Below the pieces are notes generated by a model that made no database searches, was not told the origin of the DNA, and saw only the letters and a list, made by a program, of their open reading frames with translations. Both the position numbers and the translations under genes were made by a program. Of a DNA stretch of 64,000 nt, positions 6,917 through 11,969 are shown piece after piece (the stretch's first letter is position 1; each line of letters begins with the position of its first letter). The stretch is from Bacteroidales bacterium (GTDB lineage: Bacteria > Bacteroidota > Bacteroidia > Bacteroidales > VadinHA17), in assembly GCA_029210565.1 (NCBI GenBank), contig JARGFQ010000010.1:2252-66251 (forward strand), in the 5' to 3' direction.

Positions 6917-8551
6917 ATGATACTCAAGCGGTATATTGAAGAGGATGATGATCAGACATTTGACCTGGTAATCGTCGGTGGCGGCATCACCGGAGCGGCG
7001 GTGGCCTATATCGCTGCCGCCCGCAGCCTCTCTGTCGCCCTTTTTGAAGGGAAGGACTACGGCGGGGCCACCTCTGCTGCCACCTCGAAGCTGATCCACG
7101 GCGGACTGAGGTATCTCGCCAACGGTGAGCTTAAGCTGGTGCGTGAGTCGTTGCGTGAGCGCAGGATCCTCGGCAACATCGCCCCCAATTTTGTATACCC
7201 GCTGCCGTTCCTGCTGCCGATGTACAAGCGGTGGAAGGGAAATATCTGGAAGATGCTCGCGGGCATGTACATATATGATGCCCTGTCGTATGATAAGAAA
7301 GATACCTGGGACAAAAGCAAGAAACTGCAGAATCACAGGCTCATCCCCCGCAGGAAGACCGTCAGGCTGGAGCCGAACCTGAAGATGGAGGATCTCAGAA
7401 ACGCCTTCTACTTCTTCGACTATCAGAGCATCTTCCCCGAGAGACTCACGCTGGCGTTCATCAAATCGGCGGCGGAGTACGGAGCAAAGGTATCCAACTA
7501 CACACCTGTGGAGGGATTTGTATTCGGTGAAGGAAACAGGATCACCGGCGTAAAGGTCCGGGACTCCTTCACGGGATCAGAGAAGGAGGTCAGAGGGAGG
7601 CTGGTGGTCAACTGCGGCGGCACCTGGGCTGATGAGATACTCAATCTTGCTGCCGGGAAGGATATGCCGGAACACAGGGTGAAGCGCTCCGAGGGGATTC
7701 ACATCATAACAAAGAAGATTGCCGGCCATCATGTGGTATCGCTTCAAAAGAGCGACGGCGGTCATATGATGATCATGCCATGGCGCGATCATTCGCTTAT
7801 CGGTACCACCGATAAGGAGTACTTCGGCGACCCTGACGACTACAGGGTATCAGAGGAGAGCATTGACGAGATCATTAACAACGTGAATGAGAACTTCGGC
7901 CGTAAGATCTCACGGTCCGATATCATCCATGCCTACGGTGGGCTGCGCCCGTTGGTTGACGACCAGACGAAGGGATCATATGAGACATCGAGAAAGTATG
8001 AGGTATACGACAATGCCAATGACGGCATTGAAGGGATGATCACCGTCGAGGGCGGCAAATATACTACCAGCAGGAGCCTGGCACGTGAGGTGCTCAGGCA
8101 GATCTCGGCGAAGCTTGAGAGGACCCTCTCCGACTCTGTCTCCGACAACCTATATCTCTCCGGATGCGAGATAAGGGATATGCGGCAGTTCATGATCAGG
8201 CAGCATCTTAACTACACGGACTTCAGCCGCAATACGGTGGAGTATGTCAGCAGGAATTACGGCACGGAGAGCAGGATTGTCTTCCAGATCGCCAGGGATG
8301 AGCCACGTTATGCAGAGGTGATAAGCCATGACGGAGAGATACTTGCCGAGGTGGTCTATGCTGTAATCTATGAAAGTGCACGGACACTCAGGGACATCAT
8401 GCTGCGCAGGACCGGCACGGGCACCCTGGGCAACCCGGGCAGAGAGATCATTGACAGGATCGCCTCGGTGGCGGCAGAGCTTCTGGGCTGGGATCAAAAG
8501 CGCCGGGAGGAGGAGACAGCTTCGGTCCTTAAGGAATATGAGCTATATTAG
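6917..8551 (+). CDS. FAD-dependent glycerol-3-phosphate dehydrogenase/oxidase (GlpD/GlpA family)
   Basis: Dinucleotide fold [35 protein letters not shown] motif. Length 544 aa with a helical C-terminal domain. Confidence 0.85.
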   Translation: [544 protein letters not shown]

Positions 8552-8555
8552 GAGC

Positions 8556-10352: not shown

Positions 10353-10397
10353 TCGACCAATGAGATAATAATTAAATAATCGAATGAAATAAATTAC

Positions 10398-11969
10398 ATG
10401 ATGAAAACATCCGATGAGCTGATACTGGCCATAGATTTCGGCACGCAGTCGGTGCGCGCGGTACTGATCGATCTCGGGGGCAATGTCCGGCAGATATGCA
10501 AGACCGTCATTGAACCCTACTTCTCCGCTGCACCGGGCTGGGCCGAGCAGCATCCCGAATATTTCCGCGACAGGATGTTCGAGACGCTGCAGCAACTGTT
10601 CCGGGAGACGGAGTTCAGCAAGGATCAGATCAAGGCTGTCACCCTCACCACCCAGCGTTCCACACTGATCAATATCGACAGTGAGGGCAAATCGTTGCGG
10701 CCGGCCATCAGCTGGCTCGACCAGAGGCTGTGTGCTGTTGGAAAATACCCTGACTGGCTGACGCAGATAGCACTCAGAATCGTGGGCATGAGGGAGGCGG
10801 TGATGCATACTGTCAAGCAGGGCGAGTGCAACTGGCTCATGCAGAACAGCCCCGAGGTGTGGGAGAAAACCAGTAAATTCCTACTGCTCTCAGGTTATCT
10901 TACCTGGCTGCTGACGGGAGAATACCGCGATTCGGTAGGGTGCACCGTAGCCTATCTGCCCTTTGATTACAGGAAACAGCAGTGGACTGACAGGAGCCAC
11001 ATGAACTACAAGATGTTTCCTATTGAGAGGGATAAGCTGCCTGATCTTGTCAAGCCCACGGAGGTGCTTGGCCATATCAGTCGCGAGGCTTCAGAGCTGT
11101 CGGGCATCCCTGAGGGTTTGCCTCTCATTGCCGCGGCTGCCGATAAGGCCTGTGAGGTGCTGGGTTCGGGTGTCGTCACTCCTGATGTGGCCTGCCTCAG
11201 CTATGGCACCACGGCCACGGTGCAGACGACGCACAGCAGGTATCATGAGGTGATACCGTTTTTTCCTTCGTACCCCAGCGCCGTGCCTGACTGTTATAAT
11301 ACCGAGGTGCAGATATACCGGGGTTACTGGATGATCAGCTGGTTCAAGAAGGAGTTCGGGCTGAAGGAGATACAGATGGCTGAGCAGACCGGACGCCATC
11401 CTGAGACCTTCTTTGATGCCATGGTCGACGAGGTGCCTGCCGGATCCATGGGGCTCATCTTGCAGCCCTACTGGTCACCCGGGGTGAAGGTGCCCGGCAC
11501 GGAGGCCAAGGGGGCCATCATAGGGTTCGGCGACGTGCACACCAGGGCACATGTTTACAGGGCGATACTCGAGGGGCTGACCTACTCTCTCAAGGACGGT
11601 CTCCTTCGTACCGTCCGCCGGACAAAAGTGCCGGTACATTCGGTCGTTGTCTCTGGAGGCGGCTCACAGAGCCGGCAGGCGATGCAGATTACAGCCGATA
11701 TCTTCAATATGAACAGCTACAGGCCACACACCTATGAGACATCATCACTGGGGGCGGCTGTCAATGCGGCGGTGGGGATGAAGTATTACAGTGATTTCAC
11801 CTCGGCAGCGGCTGCCATGACCAGGAGGGGTGAGGAGTTCGTGCCTGACCCGAAGAATGTGGAGATCTATGGCGAGCTGTATGACAGGGTCTATTCGAAG
11901 ATGTACAAACACTTGCAGCCTCTCTATGAGCAGATCAGGGATGTCATCGGCTACCCGCCGAAGATATGA
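10398..11969 (+). CDS. FGGY-family carbohydrate/polyol kinase
   Basis: N-terminal [17 protein letters not shown] and GWAEQHPE. C-terminal [21 protein letters not shown]. Both are classic FGGY motifs. Confidence 0.85.
   Translation: [523 protein letters not shown]

What the first reader, a model, noticed from the sequence alone, without database searches (positions are those of the whole stretch)
6917..11969. GlpD-like dehydrogenase, genuine AGPS-family enzyme and FGGY kinase: candidate alkylglycerol (ether-lipid) module
Seen in the sequence: three co-directional genes.
- The middle protein carries AGPS-specific features rather than generic GlcD/D-lactate dehydrogenase features. These are the N-terminal LKWGDKRE (compare the W-G-W-G region), [47 protein letters not shown] and the SHHHGVG 'HHH loop'.
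- The flanking genes have GlpD motifs ([21 protein letters not shown]) and FGGY motifs ([33 protein letters not shown]).

Established knowledge:
- AGPS exchanges the acyl chain of acyl-DHAP for a fatty alcohol, making the ether bond.
- GlpD interconverts glycerol-3-phosphate and DHAP backbones.
- FGGY kinases phosphorylate glycerol-like polyols.

Inference: taken in the order kinase, dehydrogenase, AGPS, the three activities could convert 1-O-alkylglycerol to alkyl-G3P and then to alkyl-DHAP. With AGPS running in reverse, the products would be acyl-DHAP plus fatty alcohol. That would be an O2-independent way to break dietary or environmental ether lipids. Alternatively the module feeds ether-lipid synthesis. 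No DHAP acyltransferase or alkyl-DHAP reductase is present in the window, so the pathway is incomplete as seen. I know of no characterised pathway of this kind in Bacteroidota.
Basis: partly seen in the sequence, partly recalled or inferred. Interest (0 to 1): 0.7.

Follow-up and report, generated by a model that had tools for sequence, protein, structure and literature searches.

The report
Orphan GlpD–AGPS-like–FGGY kinase gene module
Three adjacent genes in an uncultured Bacteroidales genome encode a glycerol-phosphate-type dehydrogenase, a relative of the ether-lipid enzyme AGPS and a sugar-type kinase; the trio is kept together across many bacterial phyla, its function has never been tested, and it may process glycerol derivatives such as ether lipids without oxygen.

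Summary
Window 6917-11969 holds three co-directional genes: a GlpD-like dehydrogenase, an AGPS-family flavoenzyme and an FGGY kinase, and every quoted motif is present.

The middle protein matches solved AGPS far better than D-lactate dehydrogenases. It keeps Arg419, Tyr578 and the HHH loop, and its model superposes on AGPS at TM 0.79-0.87. It is not in the eukaryotic, acyltransferase-linked AGPS clade. It belongs to a large bacterial clade with Gln in place of Asp303.

In 43 of 55 well-flanked loci from many phyla, that clade sits within 5 kb of a GlpD/GlpA-type dehydrogenase, an FGGY kinase or both. In some lineages a YegS-type lipid kinase is adjacent. About 1100-aa AGPS-like::GlpD-like fusion proteins exist. 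No acyltransferase, fatty-acyl reductase or transporter is conserved nearby.

A trio annotated the same way is published as the P. aeruginosa PA3026-PA3024 operon, function unresolved.

Best reading (confidence 0.42):
- The kinase and dehydrogenase turn a 1-substituted glycerol into a 1-substituted DHAP.
- The AGPS-like enzyme then exchanges or removes the substituent.
- Ether-lipid breakdown is plausible but untested.

The parts
6917..8551 (+). GlpD-like FAD-dependent dehydrogenase (544 aa), of the glycerol-3-phosphate dehydrogenase/oxidase type
   Evidence: Pfam DAO + DAO_C. The best NCBIfam match is the GlpD equivalog at 316 bits, below its cut-off of 360. PDB: alpha-glycerophosphate oxidase E 1.9e-62 and E. 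coli GlpD E 2.9e-60. Residues aligned with E. coli GlpD R54, H232, R317, R332 and K354 are conserved. Their role in binding or catalysis is from my own knowledge.
8556..10184 (+). AGPS-family flavoenzyme (542 aa; alternative start 8538 gives 548 aa) of the bacterial 'PQS' clade that is linked to GlpD-like genes
   Evidence: Pfam FAD_binding_4 + FAD-oxidase_C. PDB AGPS E 2.3e-84 against D-LDH 9.5e-30. AF2 model pLDDT 91.6. The top 37 Foldseek PDB hits are all AGPS chains, TM 0.79-0.87. R318, Y461 and H497-H499 correspond to Arg419, Tyr578 and His615-617. Q201 stands in place of Asp303. The start lies 4 nt after the upstream stop, or overlaps it by 14 nt if 8538 is used.
10185..10397 (.). AT-rich intergenic spacer between the AGPS-like gene and the kinase gene
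   Evidence: 213 nt here against 60 nt in the closest relatives. No terminator-like site lies in the spacer. One promoter-like hit at 10353-10380 is within what chance gives.
10398..11969 (+). FGGY-family kinase (523 aa) of uncharacterised specificity
   Evidence: Pfam FGGY_N + FGGY_C. All NCBIfam equivalogs fall below their cut-offs; the best is XylB at 249 bits against 380. It is about equally distant from solved glycerol, xylulose and gluconate kinases, E 1e-30 to 1e-35. It keeps the equivalents of GlpK R83, W103 and D245 but not E84, Y135 or F270 (residue roles from my own knowledge). It is 30.5% identical (E 1e-71) to the Enterococcus gilvus FGGY kinase that is translationally coupled to an AGPS-like gene.

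Best explanation
The three genes form one conserved, self-contained metabolic module. It resembles the glpK-glpD glycerol pathway with an AGPS-type flavoenzyme added.

Proposed mechanism (inferred, not shown):
1. The FGGY kinase phosphorylates the free primary hydroxyl of a glycerol that carries a substituent on its other primary carbon.
2. The GlpD-like flavoprotein oxidises the C2 hydroxyl. The product is a 1-substituted dihydroxyacetone phosphate.
3. The AGPS-like enzyme uses the non-redox covalent flavin-N5 chemistry of AGPS, with Tyr as base plus the HHH loop and Arg. It expels the C1 substituent and replaces it with water or another nucleophile. The backbone is released as DHAP or as a DHAP derivative.

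The most likely substrates are lipid-derived 1-O-radylglycerols. 1-O-alkylglycerols are the attractive case, because an ether bond cannot be removed by a simple hydrolase. That would be an oxygen-independent route for breaking or salvaging ether lipids. The identity of the substituent and the direction of the AGPS-type step are not established.
For: - Family and catalytic machinery. The middle protein is closest to solved AGPS by sequence and by fold. It shares 63 positions that are conserved in both clades, including Arg419, Arg515, Tyr578 and His615-617.
- Functional coupling. Of 55 loci from many phyla with at least 3.5 kb on both sides, 43 have a GlpD/GlpA-type dehydrogenase or an FGGY kinase within 5 kb of the AGPS-like gene. 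Twenty have both, usually adjacent and co-directional.
- Fusion proteins. AGPS-like::GlpD-like proteins of about 1100 aa occur in at least 25 sequence clusters that are 37-63% identical to the query fusion protein P0134. This argues that the dehydrogenase product is handed to the AGPS-like enzyme.
- Alternative dehydrogenase. In Clostridia, Thermotogae and Caldisericota the dehydrogenase is the DAO + Pyr_redox_2 + DUF1667 trio, still followed by FGGY and the AGPS-like gene.
- Self-contained. Among 248 neighbouring proteins no other Pfam family recurs in more than 4. None of the families listed (the 25 most frequent per scan) is an acyltransferase, a fatty-acyl reductase or a glycerol channel.
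- Lipid hint. A YegS/DAGK-type lipid kinase lies in the cluster, where other lineages have the FGGY kinase, in Leptospira, which belongs to the window's own clade. The same is true in a KSB1 fusion locus and in Streptomyces. FadR-type GntR regulators (13 loci), thioesterase and acyl-CoA synthetase genes recur.
- Logic. DHAP is a central metabolite, so a dedicated kinase plus dehydrogenase only makes sense if the substituent is carried through both steps (inference).
- Regulation. Local repressors (GntR, TetR, LacI, GlpP) and the silence of the P. aeruginosa operon without its activator fit inducible catabolism.
Against: - No enzyme of this clade has been assayed.
- No FGGY kinase is known to act on a lipid (own knowledge). 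The related operons in Roseibium and Shinella carry a sugar-type ABC transporter and a LacI regulator, and the one in Enterococcus carries GlpP and GldA. These point to water-soluble substrates.
- From my own recollection, not verified here, classical AGPS does not run backwards from alkyl-DHAP.
- The GlpD-like protein keeps all the residues I could check against E. coli GlpD, so plain glycerol-3-phosphate is not excluded as its substrate.
- Twelve of 55 well-flanked loci have neither partner gene nearby.
- A P. aeruginosa deletion of the published operon annotated the same way had no phenotype on the media tested.
Confidence: 0.42

Rival explanations
1. Ether-lipid biosynthesis. The AGPS-like enzyme runs the canonical forward reaction: acyl-DHAP plus fatty alcohol gives alkyl-DHAP plus fatty acid. 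The kinase and dehydrogenase supply the backbone. Either glycerol goes to G3P and then DHAP, followed by an acyltransferase encoded elsewhere, as proposed for P. aeruginosa. Or monoacylglycerol or lysophosphatidate is oxidised directly to acyl-DHAP by the GlpD-like enzyme, which removes the need for a DHAP acyltransferase.
For: - This is the only activity ever shown for the family, and all known catalytic residues are kept.
- It is the reading given in PMC8151288. Distant AGPS homologues are treated as ether-lipid genes in PMC13159169.
- Several carrier lineages, such as Desulfobacterota and Thermotogae, include producers of alkyl ether lipids.
- PA3026 protein was detected in alkane-grown P. 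aeruginosa, where fatty alcohols are intermediates. This is weak evidence.
Against: - Among the 248 neighbouring proteins and in the window, none of the families listed is a fatty-acyl reductase or an acyltransferase; SDR-type reductases turn up only sporadically. Bona fide bacterial AGPS (M. xanthus MXAN_1676) is clustered with a FAR-GNPAT protein.
- The window clade is separate from the eukaryotic and acyltransferase-fused clade, and differs at the Asp303 position.
- DHAP needs no dedicated supply route.
- From my own knowledge, P. aeruginosa, M. tuberculosis and Leptospira carry relatives of the module, and none is known to make alkyl glycerolipids.
- Local repressors suggest an inducible function rather than a housekeeping one.
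Confidence: 0.25
2. A soluble-substrate or new-chemistry module. The kinase and dehydrogenase handle glycerol itself or a small hydrophilic glycerol or polyol derivative. Candidates are a glyceryl glycoside, a glycerophosphodiester of the sn-1 series, or dihydroxypropanesulfonate. The AGPS-like enzyme then acts on DHAP or on a keto-phosphate with a non-lipid leaving group, or performs a reaction not yet described for the family.
For: - FGGY kinases are known only with water-soluble substrates (own knowledge; the nine functions are listed in PMC3245297).
- Roseibium and Shinella operon: LacI, AGPS-like, FGGY, CUT1-type ABC transporter, GldA-like dehydrogenase, SDR.
- Enterococcus gilvus cluster: GldA, GlpP antiterminator, FGGY, AGPS-like. 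Both AGPS-like proteins keep Arg, Tyr, HHH and the clade's Gln.
- NUDIX::AGPS-like fusions occur inside the window's clade.
Against: - In the window's own clade no transporter is conserved next to the module. That is unexpected for a charged or hydrophilic nutrient.
- Lipid kinases lie in the cluster, where other lineages have the FGGY kinase, in Leptospira, KSB1 and Streptomyces.
- The alphaproteobacterial and enterococcal proteins are only 29-34% identical to the window protein and lack its N-terminal 50-65 residues. They may have a different specificity.
Confidence: 0.25
3. The flavoenzyme is an ordinary GlcD/D-lactate-type dehydrogenase. It would, for example, oxidise D-lactate formed from DHAP through methylglyoxal, and it merely resembles AGPS.
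For: It has the same Pfam domains as GlcD and D-LDH. There is a weak sub-threshold match to the glcD model, 172 bits against a cut-off of 568.
Against: - AGPS matches are about 55 orders of magnitude better than D-LDH matches.
- The fold superposes on AGPS over about 535 columns including the N-terminal domain. D-LDH gives TM 0.74 at 24% identity.
- The SHHHGVG motif replaces what I recall, from my own knowledge, as a metal-binding Glu-His motif in the D-LDH group, and the AGPS Tyr and Arg are invariant or nearly so.
Confidence: 0.03

Closest known systems
[quoted passage not shown]
   Same: - Same fold over the full length, TM 0.79-0.87.
- About 30% identity.
- The N-terminal W-G motif, Arg419, Arg515, Tyr578 and the His615-617 HHH loop are conserved.
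- It is therefore expected to use the same covalent flavin chemistry on a DHAP-type substrate.
   Different: - It lies in a separate clade in the tree.
- It has Gln instead of Asp303 in the PDS motif. Asp occurs mainly in the eukaryotic and acyltransferase-fused clade.
- Its partners are a GlpD-like dehydrogenase and a kinase. Eukaryotic AGPS and MXAN_1676 pair with a DHAP acyltransferase and a fatty-acyl reductase.
- No activity has been shown.
P. aeruginosa PA3026-PA3024(-PA3023) operon controlled by the AraC regulator GliR (PMC8151288). The Streptomyces plasmid arrangement seen matches, from my own knowledge, M. tuberculosis Rv2249c-Rv2252.
   Same: It has the same three enzyme types in one operon, according to the authors' annotation: an AGPS-type oxidoreductase, a GlpD homologue and an FGGY kinase. 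The Streptomyces version has GlpD, TetR, AGPS-like and a YegS/Rv2252-family lipid kinase. Its AGPS-like protein is 35% identical to the window protein and has the same PQS, Tyr and HHH signature.
   Different: - The gene order and the regulator differ. The window has no AraC or TetR regulator and no lipid kinase next to the trio.
- The function of that operon is also unknown. Its deletion gave no phenotype.
glpK-glpD glycerol catabolism, and the Firmicute GlpA-like/Pyr_redox_2/DUF1667 glycerol-3-phosphate dehydrogenase
   Same: A kinase of the same superfamily is followed by a flavin dehydrogenase of the same family. The residues aligned with the GlpD residues I checked are conserved. The Clostridial versions of the module use the DAO + Pyr_redox_2 + DUF1667 trio.
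   Different: Both proteins score below the curated GlpD and GlpK equivalog cut-offs. The kinase lacks the equivalents of three GlpK glycerol-contact residues. No glycerol channel is nearby. An extra AGPS-type enzyme is always attached.
Erythritol catabolism: EryA (FGGY kinase) and EryB (GlpD-like dehydrogenase) of Brucella and Rhizobium
   Same: The first two steps follow the same logic: a polyol kinase, then an FAD-dependent polyol-phosphate dehydrogenase of the GlpD family (own knowledge; EryA is listed in PMC3245297).
   Different: No EryC, TpiA2 or RpiB-type isomerase genes lie near the module. The third enzyme is an AGPS-type flavoprotein, which the erythritol pathway lacks.
Alkylglycerol monooxygenase (AGMO)
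   Same: If the ether-cleavage reading is right, the net function is the same: release of the alkyl chain from 1-O-alkylglycerol.
   Different: AGMO is an O2- and tetrahydrobiopterin-dependent membrane enzyme of the fatty-acid hydroxylase family. It is described as the only enzyme known to cleave this bond (abstracts of PMC9192799 and PMC7911779). The module here would be oxygen-independent, ATP-consuming and soluble or peripheral, with unrelated proteins.

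Membership tests
AGPS (alkylglycerone-phosphate synthase, EC 2.5.1.26) | VAO/PCMH two-domain flavoenzyme (FAD_binding_4 + FAD-oxidase_C) that matches AGPS structures over the full length better than GlcD/D-LDH | tested here: met
   Pfam. PDB phmmer 2.3e-84 and 1.4e-68 for AGPS against 9.5e-30 for D-LDH. AF2 pLDDT 91.6 and Foldseek TM 0.79-0.87 to 37 AGPS chains against 0.74 to D-LDH.
AGPS (alkylglycerone-phosphate synthase, EC 2.5.1.26) | Catalytic Tyr578, the His615-His617 'HHH loop' and Arg419 (guinea-pig numbering; residue roles from my own knowledge of the AGPS structures) | tested here: met
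   Y461, H497-H499 and R318 in the window protein. They are invariant or at least 90% conserved in 30 diverse relatives and present in both clades.
AGPS (alkylglycerone-phosphate synthase, EC 2.5.1.26) | Asp303 in the H-x-P-D-S motif, as in eukaryotic and acyltransferase-fused AGPS | tested here: not met
   The window has Gln201 (FPQSFE). Asp is found in 20 of 232 sequences, mainly those grouping with the eukaryotic AGPS and the Acyltransferase::AGPS fusions. Gln is found in 180, including all GlpD- and kinase-linked proteins checked apart from three fusion proteins with Glu or Gly. The role of Asp303 was not verified.
AGPS (alkylglycerone-phosphate synthase, EC 2.5.1.26) | Phylogenetic placement with experimentally supported AGPS | tested here: not met
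   In the NJ tree of 217 sequences the window and all 80 genome loci form a clade separate from the one holding 2uuu, 4bby and the acyltransferase fusion P0208. The tree has a midpoint root and no bootstrap, so the topology is indicative only.
AGPS (alkylglycerone-phosphate synthase, EC 2.5.1.26) | Association with a DHAP acyltransferase (GNPAT) and a fatty acyl-CoA reductase that supply acyl-DHAP and fatty alcohol | tested here: not met
   None was found in the scanned ORFs of the window. None of the most frequent Pfam families listed for 248 neighbours in 80 loci is of these types. M. xanthus AGPS is clustered with a FAR-GNPAT protein.
AGPS (alkylglycerone-phosphate synthase, EC 2.5.1.26) | Acyl-DHAP/fatty-alcohol exchange activity | not testable with these tools
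   This needs an enzyme assay.
GlpD (aerobic glycerol-3-phosphate dehydrogenase) | DAO + DAO_C architecture and a score above the curated equivalog cut-off | tested here: inconclusive
   The architecture is met. NF008899 scores 316 bits, below its cut-off of 360, and NF009906 scores 292, below 352.
GlpD (aerobic glycerol-3-phosphate dehydrogenase) | Substrate-phosphate and catalytic residues of E. coli GlpD: R54, H232/233, R317, R332, K354 (list from my own knowledge) | tested here: met
   All five align with identical residues in the window protein.
GlpK / XylB (FGGY kinases of known specificity) | A score above the equivalog cut-off | tested here: not met
   XylB 249 bits against 380. GlpK 144 against 590. 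Gluconokinase 164 against 649.
GlpK / XylB (FGGY kinases of known specificity) | GlpK glycerol-contact residues R83, E84, W103, Y135, D245, F270 (E. coli numbering, own knowledge) | tested here: not met
   In the alignment to Thermococcus glycerol kinase the R, W and D equivalents are kept. E becomes S, Y becomes V and F becomes V. The R, W and D positions look conserved in the 38 module-linked kinases, read by eye from the conservation line.
PA3026-PA3024 (GliR) type operon | AGPS-type oxidoreductase, GlpD homologue and FGGY kinase in one co-directional cluster | tested here: met
   Window genes. Composition of the published operon. Sequence orthology to the PA proteins was not tested.
PA3026-PA3024 (GliR) type operon | Divergent AraC-type activator and an adjacent YegS-type lipid kinase | tested here: not met
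   The upstream genes are an HTH_34 protein and CreD. The downstream genes are on the opposite strand and unrelated.
Erythritol pathway (EryABC-TpiA2-RpiB) | Isomerase and racemase genes next to the kinase and the GlpD-like dehydrogenase | tested here: not met
   No such families were found in the window neighbours or in the frequent-family lists of the 248 neighbours.

The most novel reading that the evidence does not exclude
The module is an oxygen-independent pathway that cleaves the ether bond of 1-O-alkylglycerols, or another non-hydrolysable 1-substituent of glycerol. The steps would be ATP-dependent phosphorylation, oxidation to alkyl-DHAP, and then an AGPS-type flavin-N5 covalent step that releases the fatty alcohol and DHAP. 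It would be the anaerobic counterpart of alkylglycerol monooxygenase, and it would be widespread in gut and sediment bacteria.
Probability: 0.22. Interest if true: 0.85.

Novelty: new variant of a known kind. Interest (0 to 1): 0.6.

Why it matters
AGPS is known only as the enzyme that makes the ether bond of animal and myxobacterial ether lipids. This work shows that most bacterial AGPS relatives belong to a different clade. That clade carries Gln in place of Asp303. It is tied, by gene neighbourhood and by gene fusion, to a glycerol-phosphate-type dehydrogenase and a kinase, not to the acyltransferase and reductase of the biosynthetic route. The module occurs across many phyla: Bacteroidota, Spirochaetota including Leptospira, Desulfobacterota, Clostridia, Thermotogae and Chloroflexota were seen here. 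Actinobacteria and Pseudomonas carry related versions.

The only enzyme reported to cleave alkylglycerol ether bonds needs O2 and tetrahydrobiopterin (abstracts). Bacterial alkyl glycerol ethers are used as sediment biomarkers because they are stable (abstract of PMC5552659). An anaerobic route for their turnover would therefore matter for gut lipid metabolism and for organic geochemistry.

Even if the substrate is something else, this is a well-defined orphan pathway with three purifiable enzymes and culturable carriers. It is directly testable.

Tried and rejected
- First structure prediction. I used a shallow alignment of 34 sequences that were 71-92% identical. It gave pLDDT 51.5 and was discarded. 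The diverse alignment A2 gave pLDDT 91.6.
- Promoter and terminator scan. It found no more sites than shuffled sequence, so it says nothing about co-transcription.
- Literature. Nine full-text searches found no paper that assigns a function to this module, and none on anaerobic ether-lipid cleavage by AGPS relatives. The search was badly designed and mostly returned noise. I could not retrieve the AGPS structure papers, so the residue roles (Asp303, tunnel residues) and the reported irreversibility of AGPS rest on memory.
- D-lactate/glycolate dehydrogenase reading. Rejected on sequence, motif and fold.
- Erythritol-type pathway. Rejected because the isomerase genes are missing and an AGPS-type enzyme is present.
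- Dihydroxypropanesulfonate, sn-glycerol-1-phosphate or glycerophosphodiesters as substrates. These would give good leaving groups for AGPS-type chemistry. There is no supporting evidence, and the lack of any conserved transporter in the window's clade argues against charged nutrients. I kept them only inside the soluble-substrate rival.
- Hydrophobic substrate tunnel.
- Orthology to PA3026/PA3025/PA3024 and Rv2249c-Rv2252. I could not test it directly, because the single genome-collection scan returned only the 80 closest loci.

Full report
**1. What is in the window**

Window 6917-11969 holds three co-directional genes.
- The first (6917-8551, 544 aa) has DAO and DAO_C domains. Its best structural relatives are alpha-glycerophosphate oxidase and E. 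coli GlpD, at E about 1e-60.
- The second is listed mechanically from 8370, but that start lies inside the first gene. The real start is the ATG at 8556, 4 nt after the upstream stop, giving 542 aa. Alternatively it is the ATG at 8538, which overlaps the upstream stop and is the one called in close relatives. The protein has FAD_binding_4 and FAD-oxidase_C domains.
- The third (10398-11969, 523 aa) has both FGGY domains.

None of the three proteins reaches the curated cut-off of any NCBIfam equivalog: GlpD 316 bits against 360, XylB 249 against 380, GlcD 172 against 568. They are members of these superfamilies, but not of the characterised isofunctional groups.

The closest homologues, and contigs with identical gene order, come from uncultured Bacteroidales.

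**2. Is the middle enzyme an AGPS?**

Yes at the level of sequence, fold and catalytic residues.
- It matches Dictyostelium and mammalian AGPS at E 2.3e-84 and 1.4e-68. D-lactate dehydrogenases reach only 9.5e-30.
- A confident model (pLDDT 91.6) has AGPS chains as its first 37 Foldseek hits. TM is 0.79-0.87 over about 535 of 542 residues. D-LDH follows at TM 0.74.
- The residues aligned with Arg419, Tyr578 and His615-617 are R318, Y461 and H497-499. They are invariant or nearly so in 30 diverse relatives, as is an N-terminal Trp-Gly.
- Sixty-three positions are conserved both in the window's clade and in the clade that holds the eukaryotic enzymes.

It is nevertheless not in the clade of the experimentally supported enzymes.
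- In a neighbour-joining tree of 217 relatives, the window protein and all 80 genome loci form one clade. The Dictyostelium and guinea-pig enzymes group elsewhere, together with an Acyltransferase::AGPS fusion protein.
- One active-site-motif position separates the groups cleanly. Asp303 of the H-x-P-D-S motif is Asp in 20 of 232 sequences, mainly in the eukaryotic and acyltransferase-fused group. It is Gln in 180, including the window protein (FPQSFE) and nearly all proteins found next to or fused with GlpD-like or kinase genes. Three fusion proteins carry Glu or Gly instead.

I could not verify from the literature what Asp303 does. 'AGPS family, distinct bacterial subfamily' is the accurate label. 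'Genuine AGPS' is too strong.

**3. Is the gene trio a unit?**

A scan of one genome per species returned the 80 closest loci, at 40-82% identity. They come from Bacteroidota, Chlorobiota, Spirochaetota including Leptospira, Desulfobacterota, Myxococcota, Clostridia, Thermotogae, Chloroflexota, Caldisericota and others.

Among the 55 loci with at least 3.5 kb on each side of the AGPS-like gene:
- 20 have both a GlpD-type gene and an FGGY gene within 5 kb;
- 14 have only the dehydrogenase;
- 9 have only the kinase;
- 12 have neither.

From typical gene counts (my estimate), a given family should appear in a 10-kb neighbourhood by chance only about 1% of the time.

Gene orders vary:
- In Bacteroidota the order is dehydrogenase, AGPS-like, kinase.
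- In Clostridia, Thermotogae and Caldisericota the dehydrogenase is the DAO + Pyr_redox_2 + DUF1667 trio, followed by the kinase and the AGPS-like gene.

Four representatives of about 1100 aa are AGPS-like::GlpD-like fusion proteins. A search with one of them, P0134, found at least 25 fused clusters that are 37-63% identical to it, from Thermodesulfobacteriota, Pseudomonadota, KSB1 and others. This is classical evidence that the two enzymes work on consecutive steps.

Clustering of all neighbour ORFs showed only regulators and a few lipid-related genes recurring:
- FadR/FCD-type GntR in 13 loci, plus UTRA-GntR and TetR regulators;
- acyl-CoA synthetase in 10 loci;
- DUF362, a 4HBT thioesterase, an SDR and an acyl-CoA dehydrogenase.

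A Pfam scan of 248 remaining neighbours found no family in more than four of them. None of the families listed (the 25 most frequent per scan) was an acyltransferase, a fatty-acyl reductase or a glycerol channel. In the window's clade the module is therefore self-contained.

**4. What the wider family adds**

- In Leptospira, which is inside the window's clade, the cluster carries a DAGK_cat/YegS_C lipid kinase and no FGGY gene. A TetR regulator and a thioesterase lie alongside.
- A KSB1 fusion gene is followed by the same type of lipid kinase.
- A Streptomyces plasmid carries GlpD, TetR, AGPS-like (35% identical to the window protein, same signature) and a 'YegS/Rv2252/BmrU family lipid kinase'. 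From my own knowledge this matches the M. tuberculosis Rv2249c-Rv2252 arrangement.
- P. aeruginosa has the published PA3026-PA3024(-PA3023) operon, annotated by its authors with the same enzyme types. The AraC regulator GliR switches it on. The authors placed it in 'glycerolipid metabolism', with a proposed glycerol-to-alkylglycerone-phosphate route, but found no phenotype for the deletion.
- Roseibium and Shinella plasmids carry an operon of LacI, AGPS-like, FGGY, sugar-type ABC transporter, GldA-like dehydrogenase and SDR.
- Enterococcus gilvus has GldA, the glycerol-3-phosphate-responsive antiterminator GlpP, FGGY and AGPS-like. Its kinase is 30.5% identical (E 1e-71) to the window kinase.
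- A Rhodococcus plasmid has an AGPS with the classical WWGWG N-terminus, flanked by 'sterol desaturase' (fatty-acid hydroxylase) family genes and an SDR.

The common theme is an AGPS-type enzyme teamed with a kinase and with a dehydrogenase for the secondary alcohol of a glycerol backbone. The dehydrogenase acts either after phosphorylation (GlpD type) or before it (GldA type).

**5. How it most likely works**

Shown:
- family membership;
- conservation of the AGPS catalytic residues;
- conservation of the residues aligned with the GlpD residues I checked;
- physical and genomic coupling.

Inferred: DHAP is a central metabolite, so a dedicated kinase plus dehydrogenase upstream of an AGPS-type enzyme only makes sense if a substituent on the glycerol survives both steps. 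The AGPS-like enzyme would then receive a 1-substituted DHAP. It would perform the family's non-redox substitution at C1, through a flavin-N5 adduct, and release or exchange the substituent.

If the substituent is an acyl group, a lipase would do the job more cheaply. If it is an alkyl group, this chemistry is a real solution to a hard problem.

Points in favour of lipids:
- the lipid kinases in the clusters of several lineages;
- the FadR-type regulators and the thioesterase and acyl-CoA synthetase neighbours;
- the absence of any transporter.

Points against:
- no FGGY kinase is known to use a lipid (own knowledge);
- the alphaproteobacterial and enterococcal operons point to soluble substrates;
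- as I recall, without having been able to check, classical AGPS does not accept alkyl-DHAP in reverse.

The kinase keeps the equivalents of GlpK Arg83, Trp103 and Asp245. It has lost Glu84, Tyr135 and Phe270. This fits a glycerol-like substrate that is not glycerol itself, but proves nothing.

**6. Probabilities**

These are rough and were not forced to sum to one.
- 0.42: catabolic or salvage scheme for a 1-substituted glycerol. Of this, about 0.22 is for the specific alkylglycerol ether-cleavage version.
- 0.25: canonical biosynthetic reading.
- 0.25: soluble-substrate or new-chemistry reading.
- 0.03: ordinary D-lactate/glycolate-type dehydrogenase.

**7. Novelty and verdict**

The enzymes belong to known families, and a module annotated the same way has already been noticed in one organism (PMC8151288). 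The new points are:
- how widely it is conserved, including anaerobic gut and sediment lineages;
- the fusion proteins;
- the Asp303/Gln split, which tracks genomic context;
- the lack of biosynthetic partner genes.

No paper in the searchable library assigns a function. I rate it a new variant of a known kind. Interest is moderate to high, because it is a widespread, sharply defined orphan pathway that three enzyme assays could resolve.

Noticed in passing
window 10185-10397: The spacer between the AGPS-like gene and the kinase gene is 213 nt and AT-rich. In the closest relatives (L001, L003) it is 60 nt. The extra 150 nt or so has no counterpart there and no obvious feature.
   Followed up: partly
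window 30651-41843: A glycogen metabolism cluster: debranching enzyme (GDE_N/GDE_C), a GT4/GT5 glycosyltransferase, GH57, a 1409-aa protein that fuses Glycogen_syn, DUF3417 and Phosphorylase domains, and a branching-enzyme-like alpha-amylase on the minus strand.
   Followed up: no
window 12914-14590 (minus strand): A NIL-ferredoxin gene and a HcyBio (homocysteine biosynthesis, sulfur incorporation) gene lie directly downstream of the trio. They keep that position in close relatives. I read this as shared synteny rather than shared function.
   Followed up: partly
window 28010-30443 (minus strand): Two tandem 409-aa paralogues, each with DUF4369 plus a thioredoxin-like/AhpC-TSA domain.
   Followed up: no
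window 4751-6715: A winged-helix HTH_34 protein and a CreD-family inner-membrane protein lie upstream of the trio. They are syntenic only in the closest Bacteroidales relatives (L001-L006, L018) and not in other phyla, so they are probably not part of the module.
   Followed up: partly
P0125, P0130 (relatives of the window protein, 40-45% identical): NUDIX::AGPS-like fusion proteins occur inside the window's own clade. The precomputed Pfam column also shows HAD::AGPS-like (P0324), GNAT::AGPS-like (P0366) and AGPS-like+CCG/Fe-S (P0379) fusions. Their meaning is unknown.
   Followed up: no
L085 6293-10315; L087 6191-10234: In Thermodesulfobacteriota the AGPS-like::GlpD-like fusion gene is preceded by a Lactamase_B (metallo-hydrolase) gene and has no kinase nearby.
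   Followed up: no
L092/L093 (Roseibium plasmid NZ_CP087157.1, 305-315 kb); L095 (Shinella); L094 (Enterococcus gilvus plasmid): AGPS-like proteins that lack the N-terminal 50-65 residues but keep Arg, Tyr, HHH and Gln are translationally coupled to FGGY kinases. In Roseibium and Shinella the operon also has LacI, a sugar-type ABC transporter, a GldA-like dehydrogenase and an SDR. In Enterococcus the neighbours are GldA and the GlpP antiterminator.
   Followed up: partly
L096 4770-8411 (Rhodococcus pseudokoreensis plasmid): An AGPS homologue with the classical WWGWG N-terminus sits between 'sterol desaturase family' (fatty-acid hydroxylase superfamily) genes and an SDR. From my own knowledge, that superfamily includes alkylglycerol monooxygenase. 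This could be a separate aerobic ether-lipid locus.
   Followed up: no
L032, L043, L052, L076 (Desulfobacterota loci): A DUF362 protein of about 435-465 aa is inserted between the AGPS-like gene and the FGGY gene, or lies next to the kinase, in several Desulfobacterota versions of the module.
   Followed up: no
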